From Bacillales bacterium UBA4951 (GTDB lineage: Bacteria; Bacillota_I; Bacilli_A; RFN20; CAG-826): a stretch of DNA of 57,753 nucleotides. The notes below the pieces were generated by a model. That model was not told where the DNA came from. It ran no database searches and saw only the letters and a program-made list of their open reading frames with translations. This document shows, in pieces, positions 16,783 to 54,769 of the stretch; the stretch's first letter is position 1; each line of letters begins with the position of its first letter. Location of the stretch: positions 1 to 57,753 of the forward strand of contig DHAP01000032.1 in NCBI GenBank assembly GCA_002397465.1, read 5' to 3'. The position numbers and the translations under genes are program-made.

Positions 16783-16783
16783 G

Positions 16784-18706: not shown

Positions 18707-20044
18707 CTAGGCCGCTAAACCGTCGATCCAAGAACCGACTTTGTAGCTGACCTTGGCGCAATAGGTCGGATCCTCGATGACGAGGTTGCCTTTGCCAGCG
18801 CCGGTTCCGGTCCACCAGTCATATCCTTTGTCGTTGAGGACCGGATAGTCGGTGCCTCCGTCATTGGAATGGTCTTGGTTGATGCCAGAATTGGTGTTGG
18901 AGCAGTAGCCGCCAATGTCCTTGCCCCAGGCCTTGAAGCCGTCATAAGTGCAAGTCATGAAGTTGATGAAAGCGCAGGAAGCATATGGGTACGGAGAAGT
19001 CTTGAGGACTTGGAGATAATGCTTGTACATGTATCCGCCGATTCCCTTGTAGCCGTCTTGGTAAGCCGCGACGGTGACGTTCTTCTTGCTCACGCCATCG
19101 CTCTCGCTGACTGAACGGAGCTTCGAATAGACGAGAAGTCCGCTCGATCCGACTGACGAGCTCTTGACGAGTTCGTTGCAGATTGGGCCGTCATCGGTCT
19201 GGACGCTGTATTGCTTCATCCAGAATTGGATGTAGGCCAAAGCGTATTTGGCGTTGGCCCCTAAGCCAAGGTCTGTGGCCTTGGTGGCTAAGGCATCAGC
19301 GGCATCGCCAACGCGCTTTTTCTCGGTGGCATCGCTGATTCCATCATAGGCGTCTTTGAGAATGGCACTGTAGGTGTCATTGGTCATCATAAGCATCCAG
19401 TTCTTGCCGACTGGCTCGCTGTTCGGGGCCATGAACATCGGGGTCTCGCCTGTGCGGACGAAGTCCCAGCAGTTCTTGTAGGTCTTATCTCCGAGGTTAT
19501 TGAACTCGAAGATCTTGTTGAGGGACTGAAGGGCGAACGGTTCTTTGTTACTGGCTGAGCCTTTCCATTCCTTCGGTACGTAGTTAAGAAGGTTGCCAGT
19601 GTCGAGCTCTTTGCTCTGGATTTGGTTGGCATCCTGGATGAGAGTCATGGAGATGTTGTGGTCGCTTGAGGCGATGTCGGCATCGATGGCTTCAAAGATG
19701 GTGTTGTTCTTCGGCTGAGTCCAAGAAATAGTGGCGCTGAAATCTGGGTCATAGTCCGGGAAGGCGGCGCGGATTGTCGCGCTTTCCTTTCCATCGGCGT
19801 CTAGGCCTTTGAGGTAATTGATAAAGTACTCTTGGGCGGTCTTTCCACGTGAAGAGTTACCAATTCCGGTCATGGTCTTGCCCCTGATCTCCTCCATTGC
19901 CTTCTTGTAGAGAGTTGCTTGATCCATACCCTCCGCGGCGGCGATGGCGGCTTCGACCTCAGTTTTGGCGGTGCTGCAACCGGTCATCAACGGCGCTACT
20001 AACGTAAGCGCAGCCAACAACACGACTGAACGAGTGTGCTTCAT
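18707..20044 (-). CDS. ABC importer substrate-binding lipoprotein (substrate unknown)
   Basis: It has a signal peptide with lipobox LMTGC. It is the first gene of an SBP-permease-ATPase operon. GGAGG lies upstream of the ATG at 20044. Confidence 0.7.
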   Translation of the reverse strand: MKHTRSVVLLAALTLVAPLMTGCSTAKTEVEAAIAAAEGMDQATLYKKAMEEIRGKTMTGIGNSSRGKTAQEYFINYLKGLDADGKESATIRAAFPDYDPDFSATISWTQPKNNTIFEAIDADIASSDHNISMTLIQDANQIQSKELDTGNLLNYVPKEWKGSASNKEPFALQSLNKIFEFNNLGDKTYKNCWDFVRTGETPMFMAPNSEPVGKNWMLMMTNDTYSAILKDAYDGISDATEKKRVGDAADALATKATDLGLGANAKYALAYIQFWMKQYSVQTDDGPICNELVKSSSVGSSGLLVYSKLRSVSESDGVSKKNVTVAAYQDGYKGIGGYMYKHYLQVLKTSPYPYASCAFINFMTCTYDGFKAWGKDIGGYCSNTNSGINQDHSNDGGTDYPVLNDKGYDWWTGTGAGKGNLVIEDPTYCAKVSYKVGSWIDGLAA

Positions 20045-40945: not shown

Positions 40946-40978
40946 TTCGTGCACCCAAAATATCAAAGGAGGAAATGC

Positions 40979-43588
40979 ATGAAAAAAAGAATATTCGTCA
41001 TGGCCGCAACCACGCTCTTAGCGTTGGCTGGATTGGCCGCGTGCGAACCAGCCGATCAATCATCAACGCCGGGCCCGGACTCAACTCCAACCACCAGCGA
41101 CAACACGACATCTAACCCAACCACCAGCGATGAGCCGACTTCAAACGACAGCAATTCTCAGCCAGAGGTCATCACCCATCGCAATGAATGGACTAAGAGC
41201 GTCCCAGAAGGCGCCATCACCAGGGATTATGACAAGAGATTCGACGAGGAAGTTGAGGATTTCTCAACTGCTACCTTAGCGGGATCATCGACAGTTAACG
41301 TTCATAACGGATTCCTCAGAAGCGTCGTGGACAGCAACTTGGATTCATTCTCCAAAGACGCCGGCAGCGCCATCTACAAAGTGGCCGCCGGAACCTTCGA
41401 GGCCATGAATCTCGGCACCAACGGAATCGGATTCCGCATGAGGGTCAAAGAAGGAAAGCTTTCTTTGTCCAATCTCGTGCTTGAACTCCGCGGCGACGAT
41501 GCCTTCAAGACTTATCCGATTCAACTATCAGCCGCCAAAGACGGCGATGGCGAAGCCCTTCCTGAGCTTACGTCTGAATATCAGGATTTCATCATCAACC
41601 CAGGACAGACCATCGAAGACGCCGACACCGTCTACACCAATACAGATGGGACCGCTTCTTCGACCAAAGTGTTAGACAAGATCGTCGGATTCCACCTCCG
41701 CGCCAATGACGAGGAAGTGAGCGCCGTCTTGGATATCGATGAGGTCTTCACCTATACCGGCACGACCCGCACGACCCTTGATGACTTCAACCGCGAGGAG
41801 CTCAACAAAATTCCTGGCGCTTGGTGGGGCGGCAACGACTCCGGTGCTTCGATCCTTGTGAGAAAAGGCCTCTCCTTAGCGGGCGGAGCCTCTTATACCA
41901 CCGCGGATCTTGACGCGACGGAAGCCGCCGAAAGCCACATCGTCATGAGTTTGCTTGGCGATAGCAGCGGTGCGACCGTGACCGTCAAGTACACCGACGA
42001 CTCCACAGTCTCGCATCCTTGGTCCGAACTAAAGGCCAAGACGAGCAACAGCGTGGTCTCAACAATTGACGGAGCCTATATCAACCTTGCCATCGACGTC
42101 AGCGTCTTCGGCGAGAAGACCATCAAGAACGTCAGCATCGCCAACTCCGGCACTAACCCATTAGAGGTCAGCAACGTCTTTGTGACCAGCTTCGAAGAGC
42201 CGTCTCTCGACCTCAGCTTCCCACGCCTAGACACCGAGAACTCCGTGACCTTTGACAACTTCAACCGCACGATCAACTCCTTAGGCACCGATTGGGATGC
42301 CTCAGCCGCCTTAAGCGCCAACGTCGATGCCGGCATCAATGGCTTTGTCTCCTATAACCATGGTGCGGACATCAAGACCGACGGAAGCGATCTATTGCTT
42401 CCAGCCGCCCCATCCCCAGACTATGACGAGGTGACGATCGGCTCCCAGCACACCATGGCCGGAGCCCAATACATCGTCTTTGCCATCAAGGGCGAGGAAG
42501 GCTATGACGCCTCAGAGTTCCGTTTCCAGATTGGCAGCCAAAGCACTCTCTATCTCAACCAAGCCCATGCCGCCGAGGGTGTCAAAACCATCAATGGCGA
42601 CGTCGAGAATCCTTACCTTGGGGTGGACGGATACGACTGGTATGTCGTTGACCTCAACTATGAGAAGATGACTGCCGGTGACCTCATCAACATGTACTAC
42701 ACCGGTGATAAAGCCATCAAGGTTGGCTCGATATTCTATGCAAATCAGGCCTCTTCCAAGATCGAAGGCGCCTCAAATGACGTCAGCGCCAACTGCACTG
42801 ACATCAACCTTGCCGACTATCATTACGTCGGTGGGCTCGATAACTTTGCCTCCGCTTACTATGGCATCGACATCAAAGGCGATGGCACAGCGACGTTTGA
42901 TTCTCTCCGCGTCGAATATAACGGAGCCACCAAATGGATCAAAGACGGCGAAGTCGTCGGCAAGCTCTCCGATGGGACCGCTCTTAGTAAAGAGATGGTC
43001 ATCCCGACAAGTGAGACGACATTATGGATTGACGTGAAGGCTTCTGGCTACAGCGTGGCCAGCGGCACCGCCCATCTCCATGTCGGCGGTGGATTTACCG
43101 GAGTCATCAGCGTCTCAAAGCTCCATGCGGCCGATAACGGCTACAAGGAAACCTACACAGGCGGAGCCGTCGTCACGATCCCAGCCGCAGGCGGATACAC
43201 CTATGGATTCGGCATTGTCACGACCAACGCCGTCGATAGGCTCTACTTCACCCTCAGCGGTGACGGAACTGAAAATCTGAAGTATTTCCGTCTAGAATAT
43301 AATTCGAAGACCTTATATCCGGGCCACGAAGGCGCCGAGCATCTCACGATCCATAAAGCCAGCGATGGCAGTGAGCTCTCGAGCACTGACGCCGTCCCGA
43401 GTGAAGCCGCTCTCTACTACGTCGATTTCGCCGAGAACGGATATGTCGCCAAAGCCGGCGCGACCGCCCATTTCCACTTTAATGACGCGGCTGATGTCGG
43501 TGGCGTGCTGACCTTCTCCGATTTCTATGGAACTGCCTCTGTGCTTCCTTATTCTGCATCCGCGAGCGGCTATTCCGACGCTTTCTAG
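40979..43588 (+). CDS. 869-aa surface lipoprotein of unknown function, built from about five beta-sandwich-like repeat modules
   Basis: AGGAGG lies 6 nt upstream of the ATG at 40979. The lipobox LAAC is followed by an S/T/P/D/N-rich linker. Internal repeats are described in the findings. No catalytic motif is recognised. Confidence 0.6.
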   Translation: MKKRIFVMAATTLLALAGLAACEPADQSSTPGPDSTPTTSDNTTSNPTTSDEPTSNDSNSQPEVITHRNEWTKSVPEGAITRDYDKRFDEEVEDFSTATLAGSSTVNVHNGFLRSVVDSNLDSFSKDAGSAIYKVAAGTFEAMNLGTNGIGFRMRVKEGKLSLSNLVLELRGDDAFKTYPIQLSAAKDGDGEALPELTSEYQDFIINPGQTIEDADTVYTNTDGTASSTKVLDKIVGFHLRANDEEVSAVLDIDEVFTYTGTTRTTLDDFNREELNKIPGAWWGGNDSGASILVRKGLSLAGGASYTTADLDATEAAESHIVMSLLGDSSGATVTVKYTDDSTVSHPWSELKAKTSNSVVSTIDGAYINLAIDVSVFGEKTIKNVSIANSGTNPLEVSNVFVTSFEEPSLDLSFPRLDTENSVTFDNFNRTINSLGTDWDASAALSANVDAGINGFVSYNHGADIKTDGSDLLLPAAPSPDYDEVTIGSQHTMAGAQYIVFAIKGEEGYDASEFRFQIGSQSTLYLNQAHAAEGVKTINGDVENPYLGVDGYDWYVVDLNYEKMTAGDLINMYYTGDKAIKVGSIFYANQASSKIEGASNDVSANCTDINLADYHYVGGLDNFASAYYGIDIKGDGTATFDSLRVEYNGATKWIKDGEVVGKLSDGTALSKEMVIPTSETTLWIDVKASGYSVASGTAHLHVGGGFTGVISVSKLHAADNGYKETYTGGAVVTIPAAGGYTYGFGIVTTNAVDRLYFTLSGDGTENLKYFRLEYNSKTLYPGHEGAEHLTIHKASDGSELSSTDAVPSEAALYYVDFAENGYVAKAGATAHFHFNDAADVGGVLTFSDFYGTASVLPYSASASGYSDAF

Positions 43589-43651: not shown

Positions 43652-45055
43652 ATGAAATCCAAAAAACACGTTCTGAGCCTTTTGTTTCCCTTATGCTTCA
43701 GCTGCCTTTTCTCTTGTGGTGGATCATCTAACAAGATCGTCCTCTCCATCGGGTTCTGGCCTGAAAGCGCCGAGACGAAAGACGTCGCGATGTATCAGTC
43801 GTGGAAAGAGAGCTTCGAGAAGGATTTCCCCCAATATACGATCAAAGGTTCGCCTTATACATATAGCCCCGACACCGTGGCCGCCAAAGCCCAGGGAAAT
43901 CAGCTCCCTGACGTTTTTCAGACCTGGTTCACCGAGCCGGAGACCTTGAAGAACTCAGGGTTCATCCGCCCGATCACGTCCTTCCTCAAAGAGAAGGGCT
44001 GGGACGAGAAGATGGACGACGAGATGAAGGACTCCCTAACATTCGATGGCGAGATATATGGCATCCCCCGCGATGGTTATGGATTAGGCTTACTGATCAA
44101 CAAGAAGATCCTCGGGGACAATGGTTTGCTCCCGGAGATCAACGGGTCTTATTCGATCTATAACGAAGACGGAACTCCCGCTTACCCAACCACTTGGGAA
44201 CAGGTCAAGGAATATAGCGAAACCATCGTGAGCCAAGACTCCGCGAAAGGCTTCATCATGTATACCACCAACAAGAATGGTGGGTGGGTCTTTTCCAACA
44301 TCGCTTGGAATTACGGGGCCGAATTAGAGACGGTTGAGAATGGGACCATCAAAGCCAACCTCAACTGCCAAGGGGCCGTGAACGCCCTCGACTGGATCAA
44401 GAGCATGGCCAATGCCGACGCCCTCACAAGCGGGGCTGGCATCGTCTATAACGATTGGTATTCCAATATCGGCGAACGTGTCGCCATGGCCGTCGTCGGA
44501 AGCGACGTCCTCCAAAACGCCAAGCTTCAGGGTGGGGTCAACATGGATGAGCTTGCCTTTGTCCCTATGCCGACAGGCGATGGGGTCAACCACTATTCCT
44601 TATATGGCGGCACCCCTTTCGTCTTCTCCAAGAACTGCTCAGACGAGAAGGTCAAAGGCATCCTCGAGTTCTTCAATTACATCGGGCGTTCTCCAGAGAC
44701 CAGCGACATCAACTTTGGCGCCAAGAAGGTCGGTTACGAGACCGCGAAGTCCAAAGGCCAGCCGATACTTCCATCGATCCTCCCATGGAAAAACGAGGAT
44801 TACGTGAGCAAAGCCAAAGAGCTTGAGAACCAATACATCAACGTCAAAATCGAAGACTACAATCCTTTCTTCGACAACATCCAGACCAACAAAAAGAGCG
44901 AAGAGCCCTATGCCGCCCAGGATATGTACAACGCTCTCGACAGCGTCATCCAAAGCGTCCTCTTAAGCCCCGAGACCGCGAACTCCTCGGCCTTACTAAC
45001 GACCGCGAATGCCTCATTCCAGAAAATACTTGATGACTCCTACAACAAGAAATAG
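43652..45055 (+). CDS. Carbohydrate ABC importer substrate-binding lipoprotein
   Basis: It has a signal peptide with lipobox-like LFSCGG and family-1 SBP features. GGAGG lies upstream. It is followed by two MalF/G-type permease genes. Confidence 0.8.
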   Translation: MKSKKHVLSLLFPLCFSCLFSCGGSSNKIVLSIGFWPESAETKDVAMYQSWKESFEKDFPQYTIKGSPYTYSPDTVAAKAQGNQLPDVFQTWFTEPETLKNSGFIRPITSFLKEKGWDEKMDDEMKDSLTFDGEIYGIPRDGYGLGLLINKKILGDNGLLPEINGSYSIYNEDGTPAYPTTWEQVKEYSETIVSQDSAKGFIMYTTNKNGGWVFSNIAWNYGAELETVENGTIKANLNCQGAVNALDWIKSMANADALTSGAGIVYNDWYSNIGERVAMAVVGSDVLQNAKLQGGVNMDELAFVPMPTGDGVNHYSLYGGTPFVFSKNCSDEKVKGILEFFNYIGRSPETSDINFGAKKVGYETAKSKGQPILPSILPWKNEDYVSKAKELENQYINVKIEDYNPFFDNIQTNKKSEEPYAAQDMYNALDSVIQSVLLSPETANSSALLTTANASFQKILDDSYNKK

Positions 45056-45057
45056 CT

Positions 45058-45996
45058 ATGAAAGCGCAACAAAGCCCCCGCACCAAAAGAAAAAAGAACT
45101 GGAAAAGCACCCTGAAAAGAAATATTTTCGCGTGGTGTCTCATCATCGTTCCTTTGGCTTTGTTCGCCTTCTATGTCTGGGTCCCGCTTGGAAGGAACAT
45201 CCTCTTAAGCTTCCAAAAGAGCTATGACGACCCAAGTTTCGTCGGCTTCGACAATTACATCGCCGTCTTTCAGGACGAGAAGTTCCTCACCGCCTTCGTC
45301 AACACCTTCAAATACATCGCCCGGTCGTTGGTGCTCGGTTACTTGATCCCGGTGTTCTTGGGATTCTTGTTATCAGAGGTCATCCACGCGAAGGGCTTTT
45401 TCCGTTTGGTCTTATACCTTCCCTGCATGATATCTGGCATCGCCGTCGTCTTCCTTTTCAAGAACATGTTCGGCGATGATTCGACTTCTTTGTTCAATGT
45501 CATCTATACGGCCTTCGGCGGGGAGTCGCGTTTTTGGAAGAGCGACACCAACCTCATCATCCCCCTCATCGTTTTGGCGATGACGTGGCGGGGGGCTGGC
45601 TCGACCGCCTTGATTTATCTATCGAGCTTCCAGAGCATCGACGACTCGATGTATGAGGCGGCGAGGATGGACGGGGCCAGTTCCGTCCAACGTTTCGCCA
45701 AGATCACGATCCCAGCCTTAAGAGGGACCTTGATCACTTTGTTCGTCTTACAGATAATATCCGTCTTCCAAGTCTTCTATGAACCGTTGATCATCGGGCC
45801 CAAAGGCGGGCCGAACAACGCCTCGATGTCCTTGATGCTTCTTTCTTATCTCTACGCGTTTGATTCAACGAGCAGCGGTTTCCAGTATGGCAAGAGCGCG
45901 GCGACCGCCATCATACTCGCTTTGATCATCATGGCCTTCACGACCGTTTATTCCTTCCTTCAAAAGGCTTTGCTCAAGAAAGACGAGGGCCGTTAA
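45058..45996 (+). CDS. Carbohydrate ABC importer permease (MalF/UgpA type)
   Basis: Six TM segments and the EAA loop YEAARMDGASSVQRFAKITIPALRG are present. Confidence 0.88.
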   Translation: MKAQQSPRTKRKKNWKSTLKRNIFAWCLIIVPLALFAFYVWVPLGRNILLSFQKSYDDPSFVGFDNYIAVFQDEKFLTAFVNTFKYIARSLVLGYLIPVFLGFLLSEVIHAKGFFRLVLYLPCMISGIAVVFLFKNMFGDDSTSLFNVIYTAFGGESRFWKSDTNLIIPLIVLAMTWRGAGSTALIYLSSFQSIDDSMYEAARMDGASSVQRFAKITIPALRGTLITLFVLQIISVFQVFYEPLIIGPKGGPNNASMSLMLLSYLYAFDSTSSGFQYGKSAATAIILALIIMAFTTVYSFLQKALLKKDEGR

Positions 45997-46928
45997 TGGA
46001 AAACGCGAAAGCCAAAAAACATTTCGTCTTCCCCCGTCTGAAGGATAAGCGGGGCGGATTCCTGAACTTCTCGGATTACCGCAATCCATCCCATCGGATC
46101 GGATACGCCTTCATCATCATTTTCCTTTTGCTTTTCTCTTTCTTGGCCCTCTTCCCAATCATCTATTTGTTCGCCTCCTCCATGAAGAGCGTCACGGAGA
46201 TCAACTCCTCTCACTACACCTTCTTCCCGATCTATTGGGATTGGAACAAACTCCCGGTTTTATGGAGCAAAATCAACTTCGGCCGTTACTACCTGAATAC
46301 CTTGATATATGTCATTGGATGCGTCTTTTGCGGAGTTTTATTCAATTCATTGCTCGCTTATGGGGTCAATATCCTTAAGCCATTCGGCTACAAACTCATC
46401 GATAAGCTCATCTTCATCGGCTACATGATCCCAGCCACCTTGAACATCCTTCCCTTGTTCAAGGAGATCGTGGCGACGGGCATCCTCAACATGGATCAAG
46501 ACAGTTATCTTTTGTATCTGCCCTTATGGCTCAGCTTTGGCTCGAACGCCTATTACTACATGCTCTTCAAAGACTATTTTCTCCGTCTTCCAAAGTATCT
46601 ATTGGAAGCCGCGAAGATGGATGGCAGCAACGACGTCAAAGTCTTCACGAGGGTCGTGATCCCTCTTTCAAAACCCATCATCGGGATCGTGGCCATCTTC
46701 GCCATGACGGCTTCCTATTCCGATTTCTTATTGCCGTATCTCTGCCTCAGCAACCAGAACTATCAGACGGTCATGGTGGCCGTCTATAACCTCAGCAGCA
46801 CCACCGTCTTGGACACCAGCGAGTTCCTCTTGTTGCTCGTGATGTCGATCGTCCCTCAAATCGTTATTTTCCTCTTGTTCCAGCGCCAGATCATGGGTGC
46901 CGGCATGAGCAAGGGAAGCAAGGAGTGA
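45996..46928 (+). CDS. Carbohydrate ABC importer permease (MalG/UgpE type)
   Basis: The EAA loop is LEAAKMDGSNDVKVFTRVVIPLSKP. The start overlaps the upstream stop by 1 nt (TAATG). Confidence 0.88.
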   Translation: MENAKAKKHFVFPRLKDKRGGFLNFSDYRNPSHRIGYAFIIIFLLLFSFLALFPIIYLFASSMKSVTEINSSHYTFFPIYWDWNKLPVLWSKINFGRYYLNTLIYVIGCVFCGVLFNSLLAYGVNILKPFGYKLIDKLIFIGYMIPATLNILPLFKEIVATGILNMDQDSYLLYLPLWLSFGSNAYYYMLFKDYFLRLPKYLLEAAKMDGSNDVKVFTRVVIPLSKPIIGIVAIFAMTASYSDFLLPYLCLSNQNYQTVMVAVYNLSSTTVLDTSEFLLLLVMSIVPQIVIFLLFQRQIMGAGMSKGSKE

Positions 46929-46930
46929 AT

Positions 46931-49192
46931 ATGGCCAAGAAAAGCGATTCTTATCTGAGCGTGGAGAAAAACGCGATAGTCGAGAATGGGTTTCACAAAG
47001 AGAAAAACCAGGTCTCGGAATCTCTCTTTTCCCTTGGTAACGAATACTCGGGCGTCAGGGGGTTCTTTGAAGAGGGGGTCTCTCTTCCTTCTCTTATCGG
47101 GACTTACTATAACGGCATCATCGAGTATGGCCTAAAGGACACGCCGAACGCATATCTAGGCATCGCCAAAAGGACCCACTTCACCATCAACAGCACCAAC
47201 TACCTCAAAGCCATCATCATCATCGACGGGGTGAGGTTGGACTTAGGAAAAGAAGAAGTGGAGAGTTTCAAAAGAAGCCTCTCGTTCGATAACGGATTAT
47301 ATGAACGTTCTTTTTTCCTACATAGAGGCAAGAAGAAAATCGAGGTCTCCTTCAAAAGGATGCTGGGGATGAATAGTCCACATGAGGCCGTTCAAGAGAT
47401 AAGTTTCCTCTCATCCGAAGACGCGGATCTCGACATCACGATGTCCCTCGACGGGACGATCCTTCACTGGGGCGACCACAACTACTGGGAGAAGGGCGAC
47501 CATTATGAGTCTGATTGCGAGTATGGGCTATATCTCAAGACCCCGACCACCAAGCAAAGCCTTTTGAGTTTGATGAAGATCGAAGCCCCATGTTTGCCCA
47601 TCAAGACGGACAGTTTGGATAAAGAGATCGACGTCCATTATCATCTGACGCTCAAGAAAGGCATCAAAACCACCTTCACCCGTTACGTGATAAACATCGC
47701 CGACAAAAAAGGCACGCTTGATTACCCCTCTACCAAGAAGTCGGCATCAGAAGAACTTGATAGATTAGTCCACAAAGGACTGTTCGGCTTAACAAAGGAA
47801 AACGAGGAGTTCTTTGCTTTACGAAAGACAGCCAGCGACATCGAAATCGATGGCGACGAAAAAGACCAGCAGGGCATCAGGTTCTGCCTCTTCAACCTGC
47901 TCCAGGCTTACACGGGCTTGGACGGGGACGACAACATCGGGGCCAAAGGGCTGACGGGCGAGGCTTATAGCGGACATGCCTTCTGGGACTCCGAGACCTA
48001 TTGCCTGCCTTACTACCTATTCTCCAATGAGCAAGCCGCGAAAGATTTGCTTCTCTTCCGTTACCACACCTTGGAACAAGCTAAGAAGAGGGCCAAAGAG
48101 CTCGACTGCGAAGGGGCATGCTTTCCGATTGCCACAAGAAACGGCGAGGAGGCCTGCACGTTATGGCAGCACGCCTCAACCCAGCTTCAGCCCACCTCCG
48201 CGGTCGGCTACGCCATCTTCCATTACATGAACCTGTATGATGATGAATCCTTCTTGAGGGAATACGGGCTAGAGATGCTTTTGGAGATCTCGAAGTTCTT
48301 ATTGACCAGAGGGCAGTGGAATCAAACCCATACCCGCTTCGGATATTATGGCGTGATGGGCCCAGACGAATTTGAGGTCATGGTCAACCACAATACCTAC
48401 ACGAACTACATGGGCAAACGCATCATGTCTTATACCTTGTCGATCCTTCAGGATCCTAAGTACGAGAACAAGACTTTGCTAAAGCGTTGCGGTTATGATC
48501 AAAAACTTATCAACGAGATGAAAGAAGCCATCGAGAAGATGTGCATCCTTTATGACCCCAAGACCAAGCTTTACGAACAGCATCAGGGCTTCTATGATCT
48601 GCCCCATATCGACGTCGACAAGATCCCAGTCAGCGATTTCCCTCTCTATAGCCATTGGGCTTATGACCGCATCTTCAGGAACGACATGATCAAGCAGCCG
48701 GATGTCTTGATGTTCTTGTTCCTCTATGCGAGCGATTTCTCCAAAGAGGTCAAAAAAGCCAACTATGAATACTATGAGCCTCGCTGCATCCACGAGTCGT
48801 CTTTGTCGCCTTCCGTCCATTCCATCATCGCCGAGGAGATAGGCAAGGACGATGAGGCTTTGTCCTTCTTTGGCTTTGCCACCAGACTCGACCTCGATGA
48901 CTATAACCGCAACACCTCCGAGGGCCTTCATATGACCTCCATCGCCGCGGCCTGGATGAACATCGTCTATGGCTTCCTTGGATTACGTAGCGACAGGACT
49001 CCCTTGGCCATCAACCCCAAGCTCCCGAAACGTTGGAGCCATTATTCGGTCCGCCTCATGTACCATCACCGTCATCTGAAGTTTGACGTCTATCCTAACA
49101 AGCTGACGATCACTAACGAGGACGCCCCGGTGTCTTTGATCGTCTATGGTCAAAGCGTCATGGTCGACAAGCTCTATGAGGTCAATAGATGA
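46931..49192 (+). CDS. GH65-family disaccharide phosphorylase-like enzyme (kojibiose/nigerose/maltose phosphorylase class), copy 1
   Basis: SLGNEYSGVRGFFEEG (N-domain), GEAYSGHAFWDSETY, GPDEFEV (catalytic Glu motif) and YYEPRCIHESSLSPS are present. AAGGAG lies 7 nt upstream of the ATG at 46931. Confidence 0.8.
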   Translation: MAKKSDSYLSVEKNAIVENGFHKEKNQVSESLFSLGNEYSGVRGFFEEGVSLPSLIGTYYNGIIEYGLKDTPNAYLGIAKRTHFTINSTNYLKAIIIIDGVRLDLGKEEVESFKRSLSFDNGLYERSFFLHRGKKKIEVSFKRMLGMNSPHEAVQEISFLSSEDADLDITMSLDGTILHWGDHNYWEKGDHYESDCEYGLYLKTPTTKQSLLSLMKIEAPCLPIKTDSLDKEIDVHYHLTLKKGIKTTFTRYVINIADKKGTLDYPSTKKSASEELDRLVHKGLFGLTKENEEFFALRKTASDIEIDGDEKDQQGIRFCLFNLLQAYTGLDGDDNIGAKGLTGEAYSGHAFWDSETYCLPYYLFSNEQAAKDLLLFRYHTLEQAKKRAKELDCEGACFPIATRNGEEACTLWQHASTQLQPTSAVGYAIFHYMNLYDDESFLREYGLEMLLEISKFLLTRGQWNQTHTRFGYYGVMGPDEFEVMVNHNTYTNYMGKRIMSYTLSILQDPKYENKTLLKRCGYDQKLINEMKEAIEKMCILYDPKTKLYEQHQGFYDLPHIDVDKIPVSDFPLYSHWAYDRIFRNDMIKQPDVLMFLFLYASDFSKEVKKANYEYYEPRCIHESSLSPSVHSIIAEEIGKDDEALSFFGFATRLDLDDYNRNTSEGLHMTSIAAAWMNIVYGFLGLRSDRTPLAINPKLPKRWSHYSVRLMYHHRHLKFDVYPNKLTITNEDAPVSLIVYGQSVMVDKLYEVNR

Positions 49193-51276
49193 AGCCCTTC
49201 ATCGTGAACGGTTTTGATTATGAGAAGCACCTGCAGGAAGGCAATTCCTTTCTTATTGGCAATGGCCATTTAGGCTATAGAGGCACCCTTGAAGAGTATG
49301 GCAAAAAGGAAATGGGTTCTTTCAATCTAGTGGGGGTTTACGACCAATATCAGGACAAATGGCGGGAATCTTTGAATATGCCAAACCCTCTTTCGGTGAA
49401 GGCTTATGTCGATGATAAGGAAGAAAGTGTCCTAACAACAAAACCAAAATCACACCAGCTCAGCTTGTCTCTTGAAGAGGGCGTTCTTTCTAGAAAGAGC
49501 GAGTTCGAGGACTTCCTTTTCAGTAGCGAGAGATTCCTTTCTTCGAAGGATGATTCGCTTCTATGTTCCAAGATCGAAATCAAGGCTAAGAAGAACGTTT
49601 CTCTTTCTTTGAGGTATGGGATCGACACCGACATCTATGAGATCAATGGCCCGCACTTCAAAAAAGAGAACATCTCAGAAGATGGCCATTGCCTATATTG
49701 GATGGGGACCACGAACGAGGAAAAAATTCTCTTCGAGAGCGTCTCCTACCTCTTGTCCAAAAACGTTGAAACCACTTATTCAGATGGCTTCTTCATCAGC
49801 AAGGCAAACCTCAAACGCGGCGAGTCCCTCAAACTAGAAATCTTTGCGAGGGTGAACGAGCAAGCGGATGATTTTTCCACCTTGTTGGACGAAGACGAGA
49901 TAAGCGGTTTTGAGACCCGTAAAAAAGAACATGTCTCGATCTTCAAAAAGAAGTTTCATGATTCTCTCACGAGCTTCAAAGGGGATGAGGATGACTTTCC
50001 TTTGGCCTACAGCATTTATCAACTAAGGATTTTAGCGGACGAGAAAAGATGCCGTGGCATCCCCGCCAGAGGCGTTTCGGGCGAGGTCTATAAAGGCGCG
50101 AGTTTCTGGGACAGCGAGATCTTCCTTTTGCCTTTCTTTGCCTTGACTGACCCAGCGGTGGCCAAGAACCTTCTTTTATATAGGATCAAGACTCTTCCGG
50201 GAGCCAAGTCCAAGGCGGAGTCCTTTGGCTATAAGGGCGCTTTCTATGCTTGGGAGAGCCAAGAAGACGGAGTGGAACGTTGCAGCAAGTACAATGTCAC
50301 CGACCCCGTGAGCGGAGAGAAGATAAGAACCTACTTCAACGAGAAGCAAATCCACATCTCCGCGGACATCCCCTTTGCCTTCGAGAAGTATTTCTCTTTG
50401 ACCGGCGATTATTCCTTGTTGGACGAAGGGGCCAAGGACGTCTTGTGCGAGTGCGCGTTGTTCTTCCTTTCTTATTCAATTAAAGGTGATGACGGCTTAT
50501 ATCATCTTAACGACGTGATCGGGCCTGACGAATATCATGAACGGGTCAATGACAACGCCTTCACGAATTACATGGCCCACAACGCGGCCAAGCTGGCCCT
50601 CAAATACCTCGATGAGGATGATCCATCAAGAAAAGACATCGAGGATTTTGAGGAACATGTCTATCTGCCTAAGCCCAACGAAAAAGGAATCATTGAACAA
50701 TTCTCCGGTTACTTCAAACTCAAGGAGTCGACGCCCGACATCTTGAGGAAGAGCCTTAGAAACCCCCAAGACTATTGGGGAGGCAAAAACGGGGTGGCCA
50801 CCCCGACCCAAGTCATCAAACAAGCCGACGTCGTCGCGATGCTTGCCTTGTTGAAGGATGACTTCTCTTATGAGCTCAAGAAGGCCAATTACGATTATTA
50901 TTTCCCTAGGACGGAACATGGTTCCAGTTTGAGCGCCTCCATGTATTCGTTATTGGGGATTGAGGTCAAAGAAGAAAACTACGCCCTCAAGATGTATCAG
51001 AAGTCGGCGATGATCGACATCGTCGGGTCCTCAAAGGAGTTCGCCGGCGGGATCTATATCGGTGGCACCCACCCGGCCGCGAACGCCGGGGCCTACATCG
51101 CGATGGTCTATGGCTTTGCCGGTTGCAGCGTCGACGAAAAGCATCGCATCTCCTTCCAGGACCATCTCCCGAAAGGCATCGATAGCCTAGAGATCCACTA
51201 TTACGAGAAGGGCAAAAGAAAGGTTGCGACGCTGAACAAGAATTCGGCGATCTTCTACAAGGAGGAACAAAGATGA
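49189..51276 (+). CDS. GH65-family disaccharide phosphorylase-like enzyme, copy 2 (shorter, divergent)
   Basis: IGNGHLGYRGTLEE, GEVYKGASFWDSEIF, GPDEYHE and YYFPRTEHGSSLSAS are present. The start overlaps the copy-1 stop (ATGA). Confidence 0.8.
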   Translation: MKPFIVNGFDYEKHLQEGNSFLIGNGHLGYRGTLEEYGKKEMGSFNLVGVYDQYQDKWRESLNMPNPLSVKAYVDDKEESVLTTKPKSHQLSLSLEEGVLSRKSEFEDFLFSSERFLSSKDDSLLCSKIEIKAKKNVSLSLRYGIDTDIYEINGPHFKKENISEDGHCLYWMGTTNEEKILFESVSYLLSKNVETTYSDGFFISKANLKRGESLKLEIFARVNEQADDFSTLLDEDEISGFETRKKEHVSIFKKKFHDSLTSFKGDEDDFPLAYSIYQLRILADEKRCRGIPARGVSGEVYKGASFWDSEIFLLPFFALTDPAVAKNLLLYRIKTLPGAKSKAESFGYKGAFYAWESQEDGVERCSKYNVTDPVSGEKIRTYFNEKQIHISADIPFAFEKYFSLTGDYSLLDEGAKDVLCECALFFLSYSIKGDDGLYHLNDVIGPDEYHERVNDNAFTNYMAHNAAKLALKYLDEDDPSRKDIEDFEEHVYLPKPNEKGIIEQFSGYFKLKESTPDILRKSLRNPQDYWGGKNGVATPTQVIKQADVVAMLALLKDDFSYELKKANYDYYFPRTEHGSSLSASMYSLLGIEVKEENYALKMYQKSAMIDIVGSSKEFAGGIYIGGTHPAANAGAYIAMVYGFAGCSVDEKHRISFQDHLPKGIDSLEIHYYEKGKRKVATLNKNSAIFYKEEQR

Positions 51277-53069
51277 TAAAAGGAATCGTGTTTGATTTGG
51301 ATGGGGTCATCGTCTCGACCGACCATTATCATTATCTGGCTTGGAAGAGCATCGCCGACGAGGAGAAAATCCCTTTTGACGAAGAGACCAACAACCGCCT
51401 CCGCGGAGTGTCGAGAATGGCTTCTTTGGACATCATCCTCGAGAAGGCCAAGAAGGCTTATTCCCCAGAGGAAAAAGCTAAGTTGGCTGAGAAGAAAAAT
51501 GACATTTACCGTTCATTGTTAGCGAAGATGAGCCCAAAGGACGTGGACCCCGAAAATTTGGAAACCATCAAGGAATTACGGGCAAAAGGCCTCAAAACCG
51601 CGATTGGAAGCTCCAGCAAAAACGCCCCGTTCATTCTTGAAAAAATCGGTTTGGACAAGGCTTTTGACTATATTGTCGACGGCTCGATGATCAGCCACTC
51701 GAAACCAGACCCCGAAGTCTTTTTGAAGGCCGCGGCCGGATTAGGTTTGAAGCCTGAGGAATGTCTTGTGACGGAAGATGCTTATGCTGGCGTCGAGGCG
51801 GCCAAGAACGGCGGCTTCCTCGCCGTCGGAATCGGCGATGCCTCCAAAGACCCGGAGACCGACTATCCCATCAAGTCGTTGAAGGACATCTTCGAGGTCA
51901 TAAAGAAAAAGAATACCCCACGCATCCAGATATCACACCTTTATAAGACATACCCGAACGGGGTGGAGGCCACCAAGGATTTTTCTCTTGATGTCTATGA
52001 CCAGGAGTTCGTGTTTTTCGTCGGCCCTTCAGGGTGCGGCAAAAGCACGGTCCTAAGAATGATCGCCGGACTTGAGGACGTCACCTCGGGAAGCATCACT
52101 TTGGATGGGGAAGACATCACGGACAAAGAATCCAGCAAACGCGATTTGGCCATGGTCTTCCAGAACTACGCCTTGTATCCACATCTCTCGGTGAGGAAAA
52201 ACATCGCTTTCCCTCTTAACGTCAGCTCCGTTCCTTTTAAGCATTTCCTCGATTTCAAATACCGGAAAGCAAGAAAAGAAGAGATCGACAAAAAGGTCAA
52301 CGAGGCGGCAGAGATCATCGGCCTCACTGAATACCTAGACAGGAAGCCAGAGAATCTTTCGGGTGGGCAAAGGCAGAGGGTGGCCTTAGGGCGCGCCATC
52401 GTGAGAAACCCCAAAGCCTTCTTGCTTGATGAGCCGTTGAGTAACCTCGACGCGAAGATGCGCGTCAGCATGAGAAGCGAGATATCCCATCTCCACGAGA
52501 GACTCAAAGCCATCTTCATCTATGTCACCCACGACCAGACGGAAGCCATGACGATGGGCAGCAAAATCGTCGTTTTGAAAGAAGGAAGCATTCAGCAGGT
52601 AGGGACGCCGGAGAATATCTTCCTCAACCCAGTCAACACCTTTGTCGCCGGCTTCATCGGGACCCCTCAGATGAATTTCCTCTCGGGCATCGTCAGTAGG
52701 TCCAACGGCAAATACGTCATCAGCATCATGGGGCAAAAAGAGAAAATCGCCCTTCCTGTTGAGAGGATGAAAAATTTCAACGACAAGCATTGCAACGAAA
52801 AGCTCATCGTCGGAGTGAGGCCAAAGGCCATCTCCATCAAAGGCGACCTCTCATATGATCCAAAGCATTGCTTCGATGGCAAGATCTCGCTTTTTGAGCA
52901 GCTTGGAGAAGAGACGATCGTCTATCTTGACTACGAAGGGATGAAAGACGAACTCATCGCCTCGACGACGGGATTAGGACGTTTCCACAAAGGCGAGAAC
53001 ATCAGCTTCTCGATTGATTTGTCCTCGCTTTGCCTATTCGACGAGACCACCGGAGCGTCCTTGCTTTGA
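51273..53069 (+). CDS. Fusion protein: beta-phosphoglucomutase (HAD) domain + MalK/MsmX-type ABC importer ATPase with TOBE-like C-terminus
   Basis: aa 1-210 carry FDLDGVIVST, RGVSR, GSSSKN, SKPDPEVF and TEDAYAGVEAAKNGG. aa ~217-598 carry GPSGCGKST, VFQNYALYPH, LSGGQRQRVALGRA, FLLDEPLSNLDA and YVTHDQ. The frame is a single one with no stop. Confidence 0.85.
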   Translation: MIKGIVFDLDGVIVSTDHYHYLAWKSIADEEKIPFDEETNNRLRGVSRMASLDIILEKAKKAYSPEEKAKLAEKKNDIYRSLLAKMSPKDVDPENLETIKELRAKGLKTAIGSSSKNAPFILEKIGLDKAFDYIVDGSMISHSKPDPEVFLKAAAGLGLKPEECLVTEDAYAGVEAAKNGGFLAVGIGDASKDPETDYPIKSLKDIFEVIKKKNTPRIQISHLYKTYPNGVEATKDFSLDVYDQEFVFFVGPSGCGKSTVLRMIAGLEDVTSGSITLDGEDITDKESSKRDLAMVFQNYALYPHLSVRKNIAFPLNVSSVPFKHFLDFKYRKARKEEIDKKVNEAAEIIGLTEYLDRKPENLSGGQRQRVALGRAIVRNPKAFLLDEPLSNLDAKMRVSMRSEISHLHERLKAIFIYVTHDQTEAMTMGSKIVVLKEGSIQQVGTPENIFLNPVNTFVAGFIGTPQMNFLSGIVSRSNGKYVISIMGQKEKIALPVERMKNFNDKHCNEKLIVGVRPKAISIKGDLSYDPKHCFDGKISLFEQLGEETIVYLDYEGMKDELIASTTGLGRFHKGENISFSIDLSSLCLFDETTGASLL

Positions 53070-54769
53070 AGTGGAAGAGCCTTCTCATAGCCTTCTTTTC
53101 CTTTATGGTTTTATGTGTGCCCTCATGCGTAGCGGCGGGCGGTTCATCAACTGATTCAACAGTTAACTCAAACGACTCGGAAGTTAGCTCATACGAGAAA
53201 GACGAGGATGGCTTTTGCGTCCTTGAGGACGGTTATTTCGATAACAGCGTTGACCCATCAGACAAAGGCGAAGTCAGCCAAGTGAAGGTGGCCCCATTAT
53301 GCGATGGCATCGACATATATAAGAAGATGCGTCTATACGTGGCCGGGGTCCAAGTGCCTCTTTATCAGGTCATGGTAAATGAGTCCCACGCTTTCGACGC
53401 CGAGGCCAAGAACCGAATCCAAAACGCCTACGCTTCAGTTTCCTTAAAAGGCAAAGCCGAGTTCAGCCTTCAATGTGGTTTCAACCCTCAGAACGATTGC
53501 ACGATAAGACCGTCCTCTTTGGGCGTTAGTCCAAAGTTCGATGAGAATAGAAGGGTTGTCAAATTCACCATCACGACCCCTGGGCAATACACGATTGAGT
53601 TCCGCTCCAGCAGAGCCCTTCATCTTTTTGTCGATGAACTCAAAGAAGAGACATACAATTCATCCAATTGCGTCTACTTCGGTCCAGGTATTCACGATTC
53701 ATCCAATGACTCGAGAATCAATTCCAGCAACATCGTTAACTTAAAGAGCAATCAGACGGCTTATCTGGCATCCGGGGCTTTCGTGAAGGCCACATTCTCT
53801 TCTTATTCTTCATCCAACGTTTCGATATTAGGCCCTGGGGTAATCCTTCTATCGGGGTTCACCCGCTCCGTGGATCCAGATGAGCATACGTTAGGGATAG
53901 ACCTCTCTTTTGTCACAGGCGCCAGGCTTCAGGATTTCTCGATCATCGACCCGGCGGGGTGGGGGATGAATCTCTATTTTGATTCCGACGTCGATATCTC
54001 TAACTGCAAAATAATCTCTTCGAGGGCCAATGGAGACGGGATATCCGTTCAGTCATGCCAAGACGTTCATGTGAGCGGCTGTTTCGTCCGGACTTATGAC
54101 GATTCATTGGTGGTCAAAAACTATCCGATGTGGAGTGACAAGAGCGTCGAGGGCGTAACCAAGAACATCCATTTCGAGTCCTGTCTCATCTGGACTGACT
54201 TAGCCCAATCGATGGAGGTCGGCTATGAGACAGTCGGAGAGACGATGGATGATATTCTCTTCAACGACATCACCGTTTTGCATAACAACCATTTGGCGAT
54301 TTTCTCCATCCACAACGCGAACAACGCCCACATCAAAAACGTGACTTTCTCGAACATAACCGTCGAGAATGCCGATGAGGTCAATAACGGCGGAAAAAGG
54401 AAGATATTGGACTTTTGCAACGTTTTTCATCCCACTTGGAGCGTGAATCACAAGGTTACTTCCTTAGGCGATATCGATGGTGTGAATGTCAAAAACGTCA
54501 AAGTCATCAAGGCCGTCCAAGGCTTATGCCTCTCTATCAACGGGACAAGTGAAACACGTTCCGCCTACCCTAACGTCGAGCATCTTGTGAAGAATGTTTC
54601 GATTGAGGATTTTGAGATTTATGGATCCGTTCTCGCGAGGCCAAACGACATCATAGACGAAAGCCTTGATGAAAATGTCAGCTTCACCAAAAGCGGCGAT
54701 CCCGTGACCGGCGCGAGCATAAAAACTTCTGACGTCTCATCGTTCGGTTCTAATATCCAAGCCATCTAA
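53066..54769 (+). CDS. Beta-helix glycoside hydrolase lipoprotein, paralogue of 38288..40945 lacking the discoidin modules
   Basis: It has the same N-sandwich plus beta-helix core (SRANGDGISVQSC, TYDDSLVVKN, WTDLAQSMEVGYET identical to the paralogue). The start is uncertain. TTG at 53066 gives MKWKSLLIAFFSFMVLCVPSC, a signal or lipoprotein-like peptide. The ORF-track start at 53030 would overlap the upstream gene by 40 nt. Confidence 0.65.
   Translation: MKWKSLLIAFFSFMVLCVPSCVAAGGSSTDSTVNSNDSEVSSYEKDEDGFCVLEDGYFDNSVDPSDKGEVSQVKVAPLCDGIDIYKKMRLYVAGVQVPLYQVMVNESHAFDAEAKNRIQNAYASVSLKGKAEFSLQCGFNPQNDCTIRPSSLGVSPKFDENRRVVKFTITTPGQYTIEFRSSRALHLFVDELKEETYNSSNCVYFGPGIHDSSNDSRINSSNIVNLKSNQTAYLASGAFVKATFSSYSSSNVSILGPGVILLSGFTRSVDPDEHTLGIDLSFVTGARLQDFSIIDPAGWGMNLYFDSDVDISNCKIISSRANGDGISVQSCQDVHVSGCFVRTYDDSLVVKNYPMWSDKSVEGVTKNIHFESCLIWTDLAQSMEVGYETVGETMDDILFNDITVLHNNHLAIFSIHNANNAHIKNVTFSNITVENADEVNNGGKRKILDFCNVFHPTWSVNHKVTSLGDIDGVNVKNVKVIKAVQGLCLSINGTSETRSAYPNVEHLVKNVSIEDFEIYGSVLARPNDIIDESLDENVSFTKSGDPVTGASIKTSDVSSFGSNIQAI

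What the first reader, a model, noticed from the sequence alone, without database searches (positions are those of the whole stretch)
51273..53069. In-frame fusion of beta-phosphoglucomutase to the ABC importer ATPase: metabolic enzyme tethered to the transport motor
One uninterrupted 598-codon frame spans both domains. Residues 1 to ~210 are a complete beta-PGM-type HAD domain with the catalytic set intact. This comprises FDLDGVIVST (the Asp nucleophile and Asp+2 acid/base), RGVSR, GSSSKN, SKPDPEVF and TEDAYAGVEAAKNGG. With no linker and no in-frame ATG at the junction (...FEVIKKKNTPRIQISHLYKTYPNG..., about 51900-51930) it continues into a full MalK/MsmX-type ATPase. That domain has Walker A, Q-loop, LSGGQ, Walker B, H-loop and a TOBE-like C-terminal domain. 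It also carries a ~15-aa extra segment (SSVPFKHFLDFKYRKARK) before the signature helix. The gene overlaps the second GH65 gene (ATGA). GH65 phosphorylases release beta-glucose-1-phosphate, and beta-PGM is the dedicated enzyme converting it to glucose-6-P. The fusion therefore places the last catabolic step on the cytoplasmic face of the importer at fixed 2:1 stoichiometry per transporter. It could also couple transport energisation or regulation to pathway flux. I am not aware of this domain architecture having been described. The ATPase gene also sits after the cytosolic enzymes rather than next to the permeases.
Basis: partly seen in the sequence, partly recalled or inferred. Interest (0 to 1): 0.72.

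Follow-up and report, generated by a model that had tools for sequence, protein, structure and literature searches.

The report
Sugar enzyme fused to transporter ATPase
One gene really does encode a sugar-phosphate enzyme (beta-phosphoglucomutase) joined to the ATP motor of a sugar importer; the fusion is conserved in many uncultured gut-type Bacilli but is unstudied and named for only one half in databases.

Summary
Window 51273-53069 (+) is one 598-codon ORF with a strong ribosome-binding site. Residues 2-188 pass NCBI's curated beta-phosphoglucomutase model. Residues 217-594 are a complete MsmX/MalK-type ABC ATPase with its C-terminal regulatory domain. No usable internal start exists at the junction.

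It is not an assembly artefact. At least 120 protein clusters, 146 sequences in hand, carry the same full-length architecture at 55-99% identity. All catalytic residues of both halves are invariant in a 26-sequence sample. The cassette binding protein, two permeases, two GH65 enzymes, fusion recurs in five independent genomic contexts.

The unfused equivalent is E. coli ycjT-ycjU-ycjV, in the same gene order with a 13-nt gap.

The enzyme half has no fusion-specific conserved residues, and the linker length varies. This favours a simple tether (equal synthesis, membrane co-localisation) over an allosteric interface.

A 13-residue insert in the ATPase helical subdomain marks the main clade, but one divergent fusion lacks it.

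Seven full-text searches found no paper describing the architecture. Public records name only one half.

Verdict: a real, conserved, uncharacterised bifunctional protein, and a new variant of known kinds. Interest is moderate.

The parts
51273..53069 (+). Whole fusion gene (598 aa plus stop): beta-phosphoglucomutase joined to an MsmX/MalK-type ABC ATPase
   Evidence: ORF and translation. Pfam and NCBIfam domains. At least 120 full-length homologous clusters.
51261..51265 (+). Ribosome-binding site GGAGG, 7 nt upstream of the ATG
   Evidence: Sequence read directly.
51273..51914 (+). Beta-PGM (HAD, C1-cap) domain, residues 1-214. Includes D8/D10 (51294-51302), the cap motif R44-G45-V46-S47-R48, S113/S115/N117, K144 and E168-D169. 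Ends in the usual C-terminal helix (203-214).
   Evidence: TIGR01990 scores 249 bits against a cut-off of 189. These residues are invariant in 26 fused sequences. 41% identity to E. coli YcjU. PDB beta-PGMs 3nas and 1lvh match at E about 1e-45. Helix 203-214 appears in the AF2 model.
51915..51923 (+). Junction, residues 215-217 (N-T-P). About 3 residues lie between the last HAD helix and the first ATPase strand. This is the position where relatives vary in length.
   Evidence: Secondary structure of the AF2 model. Alignment columns 213-226 are variable, with 0-12 extra residues. No start codon with an SD sequence.
51924..52658 (+). ABC nucleotide-binding domain, residues 218-462. Walker A GPSGCGKS 251-258 (52023-52046), Q297, LSGGQ 362-366 (52356-52370), Walker B FLLDE 383-387 (with P388), H420.
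   Evidence: Pfam ABC_tran. Motifs invariant. Foldseek match to MsmX 6yir and 7x0q with target-normalised TM-score (TMt) 0.88-0.91.
52236..52274 (+). 13-residue insertion F322-R334 (FKHFLDFKYRKAR) in the helical subdomain. R331, K332 and R334 are invariant in the main fused clade.
   Evidence: Absent from about 75 unfused MsmX-type ATPases and present in main-clade fusions. Absent from the divergent fusion P0148.
52659..53066 (+). C-terminal MalK-type regulatory (OB/TOBE-like) domain, residues 463-598
   Evidence: Pfam OB_MalK 463-519. Structural alignment to full-length MsmX/MalK.
40949..43588 (+). 879-aa predicted lipoprotein of unknown family that heads the conserved cassette
   Evidence: No Pfam, NCBIfam or PDB hit. 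Lipobox signal peptide. Orthologues next to the cassette in L081, L084, L087 and L001.
43652..45055 (+). Solute-binding lipoprotein of the importer
   Evidence: Pfam SBP_bac_1. Lipobox. Conserved position.
45058..46928 (+). Two permease genes (45058-45996 and 45996-46928)
   Evidence: Pfam BPD_transp_1 in each. Conserved position.
46925..49192 (+). GH65 enzyme 1 (755 aa), kojibiose-phosphorylase-like
   Evidence: Pfam GH65 N, m and C domains. 881 bits to PDB 6w0p 'kojibiose phosphorylase'. GPDEF acid motif and H-E-SSLS loop as in YcjT.
49189..51276 (+). GH65 enzyme 2 (695 aa). Its stop codon overlaps the fusion's ATG.
   Evidence: Pfam GH65 N and m domains. Best PDB hits are 4ktp/4ktr and kojibiose phosphorylase 3wiq. 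GPDEY and H-G-SSLS retained.

Best explanation
The gene encodes a bifunctional protein. It most likely arose when the stop codon between an adjacent beta-phosphoglucomutase gene and the operon's ABC ATPase gene was lost. The unfused arrangement is seen in E. coli ycjU-ycjV.

Proposed working:
- The C-terminal 380 residues dimerise as the nucleotide-binding subunits of the CUT1-type importer formed by the operon's binding lipoprotein and two permeases. They power uptake of an alpha-glucoside, probably of the kojibiose/nigerose type.
- The two cytosolic GH65 phosphorylases split the sugar into beta-glucose-1-phosphate plus an acceptor.
- The N-terminal 214 residues, an ordinary active beta-PGM hanging from the ATPase N-terminus on a 3-15 residue tether, convert beta-G1P to glucose-6-phosphate.

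The fusion guarantees equimolar synthesis and puts two mutase copies at each transporter.

Shown here: the ORF, both domain identities, invariant catalytic residues, conservation of the fusion, and conservation of the operon. Inferred: both activities, assembly with these permeases, the substrate class, and the view that the benefit is co-expression and co-localisation rather than allostery.
For: - Uninterrupted ORF with an RBS and no internal start.
- The beta-PGM equivalog model is passed, and a full MsmX-type ATPase is present.
- D8, D10, T16, H20, R44, G45, S47, R48, S113, S115, N117, K144, E168, D169 are invariant across 26 fused proteins at 55-69% identity. So are Walker A, Q297, LSGGQ, Walker B with E387, and H420.
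- Both halves are conserved to a similar degree in relatives (HAD 58-60%, ATPase 43-64%).
- At least 120 full-length clusters exist.
- The operon has no other ATPase gene and is orthologous in five contexts.
- The E. coli ycj cluster has the same order, with ycjU and ycjV separated by 13 nt (PMC11543891).
- Both GH65s keep the acid and phosphate-loop motifs of YcjT.
- No HAD residue is conserved specifically in fused proteins, and linker length varies, as expected for a passive tether.
- The same window holds another gene fusion, a 612-aa double permease, so the lineage tolerates fusions.
Against: - No biochemical, proteomic or transcript evidence is available.
- The AF2 model has pTM 0.77. 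That is higher than expected if the HAD domain were placed at random, so a defined packing cannot be excluded.
- The main clade carries a conserved basic insert (YRKxRK) in the helical subdomain whose role is unknown.
- The fusion has been kept over deep divergence, and a second form exists whose ATPase groups with unfused proteins. This hints at selection beyond neutral fusion.
- The window encodes a second MsmX-type ATPase (15145-16803), so ATPase-permease pairing is inferred from operon membership only.
Confidence: 0.75

Rival explanations
1. Regulatory coupling. The HAD domain packs against the ATPase, possibly through the clade-specific basic insert. Its cap opening and closing on beta-G1P or glucose-1,6-bisphosphate would gate ATPase dimer closure. 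Uptake would then be throttled or stimulated according to downstream flux. This would be an enzyme-based analogue of EIIAGlc inhibition of MalK, or of trans-inhibition by C-terminal ligand-binding domains.
For: - The tether in this protein is very short, about 3 residues between the HAD helix and ATPase strand 1.
- pTM 0.77 suggests a preferred inter-domain arrangement.
- The conserved insert with invariant R331, K332 and R334 is found only in fused main-clade proteins among those compared.
- MalK is known to be regulated by protein binding to its NBD and regulatory domain (PMC6906923).
Against: - No HAD residue is conserved specifically in fused proteins when compared with 119 unfused beta-PGMs.
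- Linker length varies by up to about 12 residues among relatives.
- The divergent fusion P0148 lacks the insert altogether.
- The insert site is a general hot-spot. The window's other ATPase has a ~115-residue insertion there, a CAG-826 paralogue has a longer, unrelated insertion, and L001 has one more than 20 residues longer than the window's. The helical subdomain is the most variable part of NBDs (PMC6906923).
Confidence: 0.15
2. Effectively neutral fusion. Stop-codon loss between two overlapping or adjacent operon genes was fixed by drift in a reduced-genome lineage. It persists only because it does no harm, with no benefit from tethering.
For: - Adjacent unfused genes exist elsewhere.
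- Genes in this operon overlap by 1-4 nt, so a single mutation can fuse them.
- Another fusion, the double permease, lies in the same window.
- CAG-826-type Bacilli have undergone reductive evolution (PMC10868615).
- The HAD half is indistinguishable from free beta-PGMs.
Against: - The fusion is retained across at least 120 clusters down to 55% identity, and no split version was seen among the retrieved relatives.
- A second fusion type has an ATPase that never groups with the main clade (0 of 200 bootstraps). This is compatible with recurrence.
- This rival overlaps the best explanation mechanistically and differs only on whether there is a selective benefit.
Confidence: 0.08
3. Artefact. Two separate genes were joined by a sequencing or assembly error at about 51900-51930.
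For: None found.
Against: The same frame is kept in an independent 99% contig and in more than 140 homologues at 47-69% identity from NCBI, ENA, JGI and Logan assemblies. No start codon for a separate ATPase exists.
Confidence: 0.01

Closest known systems
E. coli ycj cluster: YcjT (GH65 kojibiose phosphorylase), YcjU (beta-phosphoglucomutase), YcjV (ABC ATPase), with YcjNOP as binding protein and permeases
   Same: The gene order is the same: binding protein, two permeases..., GH65, beta-PGM, ATPase. The HAD half is 41% identical to YcjU, and the ATPase half is about 49% identical to the ycjV reading frame. The pathway logic matches: phosphorolysis to beta-G1P, then mutase (PMC11543891).
   Different: ycjU and ycjV are separate genes 13 nt apart, and ycjV is a pseudogene in K-12. 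GH65 enzyme 1 here is only 27% identical to YcjT. The E. coli cluster also carries dehydrogenase and epimerase genes and a porin gene, which are absent here.
Bacillus subtilis MsmX (PDB 6yir) and Clostridium thermocellum Clo1313_2554 (PDB 7x0q), sugar ABC ATPases of Bacillota
   Same: These are the best sequence and structure matches to residues 218-598 (356 and 325 bits; TMt 0.88-0.91 at 45-46% identity). They share the NBD plus regulatory-domain architecture.
   Different: Both are free-standing proteins of about 365 aa. From my own knowledge, MsmX is shared among several importers and is encoded apart from them. They have no N-terminal enzyme domain and no 13-residue helical-subdomain insert.
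Lactococcus lactis PgmB (PDB 1lvh) and B. subtilis beta-PGM (PDB 3nas)
   Same: Residues 1-190/206 align end to end at E about 1e-45. The catalytic residue set matches, with nearly identical numbering (residue roles from established beta-PGM literature, recalled).
   Different: The known enzymes are soluble proteins of about 220 aa. Here the C-terminal helix runs straight into an ABC ATPase.
E. coli MalK with regulation through EIIAGlc and MalT. More generally, ABC importer ATPases with C-terminal ligand-sensing domains such as MetN, ModC and OpuA (the last three recalled from memory).
   Same: These are precedents for extra domains or partner proteins on an importer ATPase that link transport to metabolic state (PMC6906923).
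   Different: Those modules are C-terminal, non-catalytic ligand or protein binders. Here the added module is N-terminal and is a complete pathway enzyme. No evidence of regulation was found.

Membership tests
Beta-phosphoglucomutase (NCBIfam TIGR01990; HAD superfamily, C1 cap) | Scores above the curated equivalog cut-off over the full model | tested here: met
   249.2 bits against a cut-off of 189.4, model positions 1-187 of 187, residues 2-188. The subfamily model TIGR02009 scores 202 against 153.
Beta-phosphoglucomutase (NCBIfam TIGR01990; HAD superfamily, C1 cap) | HAD motifs: DxD nucleophile and acid/base, Ser/Thr motif II, Lys motif III, acidic motif IV | tested here: met
   D8 and D10, S113/S115 (with N117), K144 and E168-D169 are all present and invariant in 26 fused homologues.
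Beta-phosphoglucomutase (NCBIfam TIGR01990; HAD superfamily, C1 cap) | Cap-domain substrate-binding and hinge residues (T16, H20, and the R-G-V-S-R loop) | tested here: met
   T16, H20, R44, G45, S47 and R48 are invariant. Assignment of roles rests on recalled L. lactis PgmB literature.
Beta-phosphoglucomutase (NCBIfam TIGR01990; HAD superfamily, C1 cap) | Catalyses beta-G1P to G6P via a beta-G1,6-bisP intermediate | not testable with these tools
   Needs an enzyme assay.
MsmX/MalK-type (CUT1) ABC importer ATPase | Walker A, Q-loop, LSGGQ signature, Walker B with catalytic Glu, D-loop, H-switch | tested here: met
   GPSGCGKS 251-258, Q297, LSGGQ 362-366, FLLDE 383-387 (E387) followed by P388, SNLD 390-393 and H420 are all invariant. 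Pfam ABC_tran E = 8.5e-35.
MsmX/MalK-type (CUT1) ABC importer ATPase | C-terminal MalK-type OB/TOBE regulatory domain and overall MsmX fold | tested here: met
   Pfam OB_MalK 463-519, 30.4 bits against a cut-off of 27. Foldseek TMt 0.88-0.91 to 6yir and 7x0q over about 380 columns.
MsmX/MalK-type (CUT1) ABC importer ATPase | Orthology to a named transporter ATPase (NCBIfam UgpC subfamily or MalK equivalog cut-offs) | tested here: not met
   UgpC scores 407 against a cut-off of 432, and MalK 375 against 568. It belongs to the broad MsmX/MalK/UgpC group but not to either curated orthologue set.
MsmX/MalK-type (CUT1) ABC importer ATPase | Assembles with the operon's two permeases and powers uptake | not testable with these tools
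   Inferred only from operon membership and the absence of another ATPase gene in the cassette.
GH65 phosphorylase / beta-PGM catabolic cassette | GH65 enzymes with the general-acid motif and the phosphate-binding H-x-SSLS loop, encoded next to a beta-PGM | tested here: met
   GPDEF and HESSLS in enzyme 1; GPDEY and HGSSLS in enzyme 2, aligned to YcjT GPDEY and HDSSLS. Best PDB hits are phosphorylases. Assigning the loop to phosphate binding rests on recalled literature; no activity was tested.

The most novel reading that the evidence does not exclude
The fusion is a natural 'transport metabolon' with feedback. The tethered beta-PGM acts as a flux sensor. Its substrate-dependent cap closure, relayed through the short junction and the clade-specific basic insert in the helical subdomain, would gate closure of the ATPase dimer. 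Sugar uptake would then be matched directly to the cell's capacity to clear beta-G1P. This would be a new, enzyme-based mode of ABC importer control.
Probability: 0.12. Interest if true: 0.72.

Novelty: new variant of a known kind. Interest (0 to 1): 0.45.

Why it matters
- **A rare architecture, worth characterising.** A complete pathway enzyme fused to the N-terminus of an ABC importer ATPase is, as far as seven full-text searches and the PDB show, uncharacterised. It is a ready-made natural system for asking whether tethering a downstream enzyme to a transporter changes flux or control.
- **Annotation consequences.** NCBI records call the protein only 'beta-phosphoglucomutase'. JGI and one NCBI record call it only an ABC ATP-binding protein. 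Metabolic reconstructions of these uncultured gut Bacilli will therefore appear to lack either the mutase or the transporter motor.
- **A functional link to exploit.** As a Rosetta-stone link, the fusion ties this importer, an unknown 879-aa surface lipoprotein and GH28-like proteins to a beta-G1P-yielding alpha-glucoside pathway. That gives a handle on the unknown substrate.

Tried and rejected
- **GTDB genome scan.** The peptide patterns included the generic ATPase motif DQTEAMTM. As a result, 79 of the 80 loci were unfused MsmX-type ATPases, and only L001 was a fusion.
- **HAD-domain tree.** The NJ tree was uninformative: even the main fused clade was not recovered in any of 200 bootstraps. 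The origin of the fusion could not be tested from that half. A first attempt with Biopython's NJ timed out.
- **Independent origin of the P0148-type fusion.** The ATPase tree never joins it to the main clade (0 of 200) and places it with unfused proteins. The whole operon in L086 is nevertheless orthologous. A single ancient fusion with unequal rates, or an ATPase swap, is equally possible. I left this unresolved rather than claim convergence.
- **Insert as a HAD-docking element.** I rejected this as a firm claim. P0148 lacks the insert, and the site is an insertion hot-spot in unfused paralogues.
- **Inter-domain contacts in the AF2 model.** Coordinates and PAE are not exposed, so only pLDDT, pTM and secondary structure could be used.
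- **6w0p as E. coli YcjT.** Not supported. GH65 enzyme 1 is only 27% identical to YcjT, against 881 bits to 6w0p.
- **Rfam scan of the window.** No hits.
- **Literature.** Seven searches found no description of the architecture.

Full report
**1. The observation**

Window 51273-53069 (+) is a single ATG-initiated ORF of 598 codons with no internal stop. GGAGG lies 7 nt upstream, at 51261-51265. The ATG overlaps the TGA of the preceding GH65 gene as ATGA.

Pfam places HAD_2/Hydrolase on residues 2-183, ABC_tran on 235-389 and OB_MalK on 463-519. NCBI's curated beta-phosphoglucomutase equivalog model TIGR01990 is matched end to end at 249 bits, against a cut-off of 189. UgpC/MalK-type ATPase models cover residues 217-594.

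Near the junction the only in-frame ATG/GTG/TTG codons are TTG203, GTG231, GTG247 and ATG263. None has a Shine-Dalgarno sequence, and the last three would remove essential ATPase elements. A separate ATPase cannot be made by internal initiation.

**2. Real or artefact**

A search of 5.8 billion clustered proteins returned at least 120 clusters, which is the list limit. Each covers 96-100% of the query, is 572-603 residues long, shares 55-99% identity, and carries HAD + ABC_tran + OB_MalK. With cluster members I hold 146 full-length fused sequences. They come from NCBI, ENA, JGI and Logan assemblies. An independent JGI contig is 99% identical. An error at the junction is excluded.

In the library of 50%-identity representatives, only three of the top 150 hits carry the fusion:
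- P0029, which represents the main family.
- P0148, a divergent 618-residue form.
- P0156, a fragment.

The family is therefore real but phylogenetically narrow.

Source names are 'Coprobacillus sp. CAG:826', 'Bacilli bacterium' and 'Firmicutes bacterium'. CAG-826 is a family of the order RFN20, wall-less Bacilli that have undergone reductive evolution (PMC10868615). The taxon of the window itself was not determined.

**3. Anatomy and conservation**

In a 26-sequence alignment spanning 55-69% identity, the following are invariant:
- In the beta-PGM half: D8, D10, T16, H20, R44, G45, S47, R48, S113, S115, N117, K144, E168 and D169.
- In the ATPase half: Walker A (251-258), Q297, LSGGQ (362-366), Walker B with E387, the D-loop and H420.

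Both halves are conserved to a similar extent in distant relatives, the HAD half at 58-60% and the ATPase half at 43-64%. That argues both are under purifying selection.

An AlphaFold2 model built on this alignment has mean pLDDT 89.7 and pTM 0.77. The last HAD helix (203-214) is followed after about three residues by ATPase strand 1 (218-226). Among relatives this junction varies by up to about 12 residues.

The ATPase half superposes on B. subtilis MsmX (6yir) and C. thermocellum 7x0q with TM-scores of 0.88-0.91 normalised to the target (TMt). No PDB chain covers both halves; the score normalised to the query (TMq) is 0.56 or lower.

**4. The extra segment**

Relative to about 75 unfused MsmX-type ATPases, the protein has a 13-residue insertion, F322-R334 (FKHFLDFKYRKAR), in the helical subdomain. 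R331, K332 and R334 are invariant in the main clade.

The insertion is not a requirement of the fusion, because the divergent fusion P0148 lacks it. The site is also a general insertion hot-spot:
- L001's fusion has an insertion more than 20 residues longer than the window's.
- An unfused 465-aa paralogue in CAG-826 has a longer, unrelated insertion.
- The window's own second MsmX-type ATPase (15145-16803, minus strand) has about 115 extra residues at the same place.

The helical subdomain is the most variable part of ABC ATPases and docks the permease coupling helices (PMC6906923).

**5. Context**

The cassette recurs, with orthologous proteins throughout, in the window, L087, L081-83 (CAG-826), L084-85, L001 and L086. 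Its order is binding lipoprotein, permease, permease, GH65 (about 755 aa), GH65 (about 695 aa), fusion. An 879-aa lipoprotein with no detectable homology and GH28-like proteins usually flank it. The cassette contains no other ATPase gene.

GH65 enzyme 1 scores 881 bits to PDB 6w0p ('kojibiose phosphorylase'). Enzyme 2 is closest to 4ktp/4ktr and to kojibiose phosphorylase 3wiq. Both keep the GPDE[FY] acid motif and the H-x-SSLS loop seen in E. coli YcjT, which is consistent with phosphorylases that release beta-G1P.

The best unfused analogue is the E. coli ycj cluster: ycjNOP ... ycjT (kojibiose phosphorylase), ycjU (beta-PGM), ycjV (ATPase). The order is the same, and ycjU and ycjV are 13 nt apart (functions per PMC11543891). 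The HAD half is 41% identical to YcjU.

**6. How it most likely works**

The simplest account, at confidence 0.75, is a bifunctional protein made by fusing two adjacent operon genes.

The ATPase half dimerises as the motor of the operon's importer. The HAD half is an ordinary beta-PGM that converts the beta-G1P produced by the two GH65 enzymes into G6P. The fusion fixes a 1:1 synthesis ratio and places two mutase copies at each transporter.

Two results argue against a dedicated interface. Comparing 146 fused proteins with 119 free beta-PGMs, no HAD position is conserved specifically in the fused set. The linker length also varies. The ATPase half does have 16 clade-specific positions, but these are the insert plus conservative swaps.

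The regulatory rival (0.15) draws support from three points: the very short tether, the pTM of 0.77, and the conserved basic insert. It cannot be excluded without a multimer model or biochemistry. A purely neutral fusion (0.08) is possible, and the same window has a fused double permease. Deep retention without any observed fission argues for at least some benefit. An artefact is excluded.

**7. One origin or two**

In a neighbour-joining tree of the ATPase halves (357 columns, 200 bootstraps):
- The main clade plus L001 is monophyletic in 183 of 200 replicates.
- P0148 never joins them (0 of 200) and groups with unfused ATPases.

The HAD tree is uninformative. The whole L086 operon is orthologous to the window's. 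I therefore cannot distinguish a second independent fusion from a single old fusion followed by rate differences or an ATPase swap. P0148 is known from one contig only.

**8. Novelty and score**

Both domains and the pathway are well known, and fusions of operon neighbours are common. Neither the PDB nor seven full-text literature searches contain an N-terminal pathway enzyme on an ABC importer ATPase.

The architecture sits in public databases under half-names: 'beta-phosphoglucomutase' for HBB05635.1 and MBR0294482.1, and 'carbohydrate ABC transporter ATP-binding protein' for CDD93930.1.

I rate it a new variant of a known kind, with interest 0.45. The most novel reading not excluded is enzyme-gated transport, at a probability of about 0.12.

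Noticed in passing
window 15145-16803 (-): A second MsmX/UgpC-type ATPase (551 aa) carries a ~115-residue insertion (about residues 118-232). It sits at the same helical-subdomain position where the fusion protein has its 13-residue insert. The inserted sequence has no Pfam hit.
   Followed up: partly
window 16784-18625 (-): A 612-aa protein has two BPD_transp_1 stretches, meaning two ABC permeases fused into one polypeptide. It lies between the 551-aa ATPase and a 444-aa protein with no Pfam hit (18707-20044) that may be the binding protein. This is a second gene fusion in the same window.
   Followed up: no
window 40949-43588 (+): An 879-aa predicted lipoprotein (signal MKKRIFVMAATTLLALAGLAAC) has no Pfam, NCBIfam or PDB sequence match. 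It is nevertheless conserved beside the GH65/fusion cassette in L001, L081, L084 and L087. It is a candidate surface glycanase or glycan binder for the unknown substrate.
   Followed up: partly
window 38288-40945 (+) and 53030-54769 (+): Two weakly GH28-like proteins, probably beta-helix (fold not checked), flank the cassette. The first also has an F5/8 type C domain. Both recur next to it in L001, L081 and L087. The downstream gene may start at a TTG at 53066 that overlaps the fusion's stop (TTGA), as called in L087. GH28-type enzymes next to an alpha-glucoside phosphorylase pathway are an odd pairing.
   Followed up: no
proteins P0151, P0152, P0154, P0172, P0186 (representative library): Many MsmX-type ATPases in the 50%-identity library have C-terminal extensions of 250-480 residues with no Pfam hit. 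Others have large insertions starting near query position 327-334. Accessory regions on sugar ABC ATPases may be more common than is appreciated.
   Followed up: partly
L081 16574-17971 (-): Coprobacillus sp. CAG:826-type genomes encode, 5 kb from the fusion, an unfused 465-aa MsmX-type ATPase. It has its own longer, unrelated insertion at the same helical-subdomain site.
   Followed up: no
L001 and L020 (same MAG, JALCRV01): One Bacilli MAG carries both a fused beta-PGM-ATPase, whose insertion at that site is more than 20 residues longer than the window's, and an ordinary unfused MsmX-type ATPase without an insert. The fusion therefore coexists with a generic ATPase.
   Followed up: partly
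database records for P0029, P0045, P0106, P0001: Annotation is inconsistent. NCBI calls some members only 'beta-phosphoglucomutase'. JGI and one NCBI record call others only a sugar ABC ATP-binding protein. Each name hides one function.
   Followed up: yes
proteins P0191, P0283, P0276, P0285: The unfused ATPases nearest to the P0148-type fusion have 20-50-residue Lys/Glu-rich N-terminal extensions before strand 1. So the ATPase N-terminus tolerates appendages in other lineages too.
   Followed up: no
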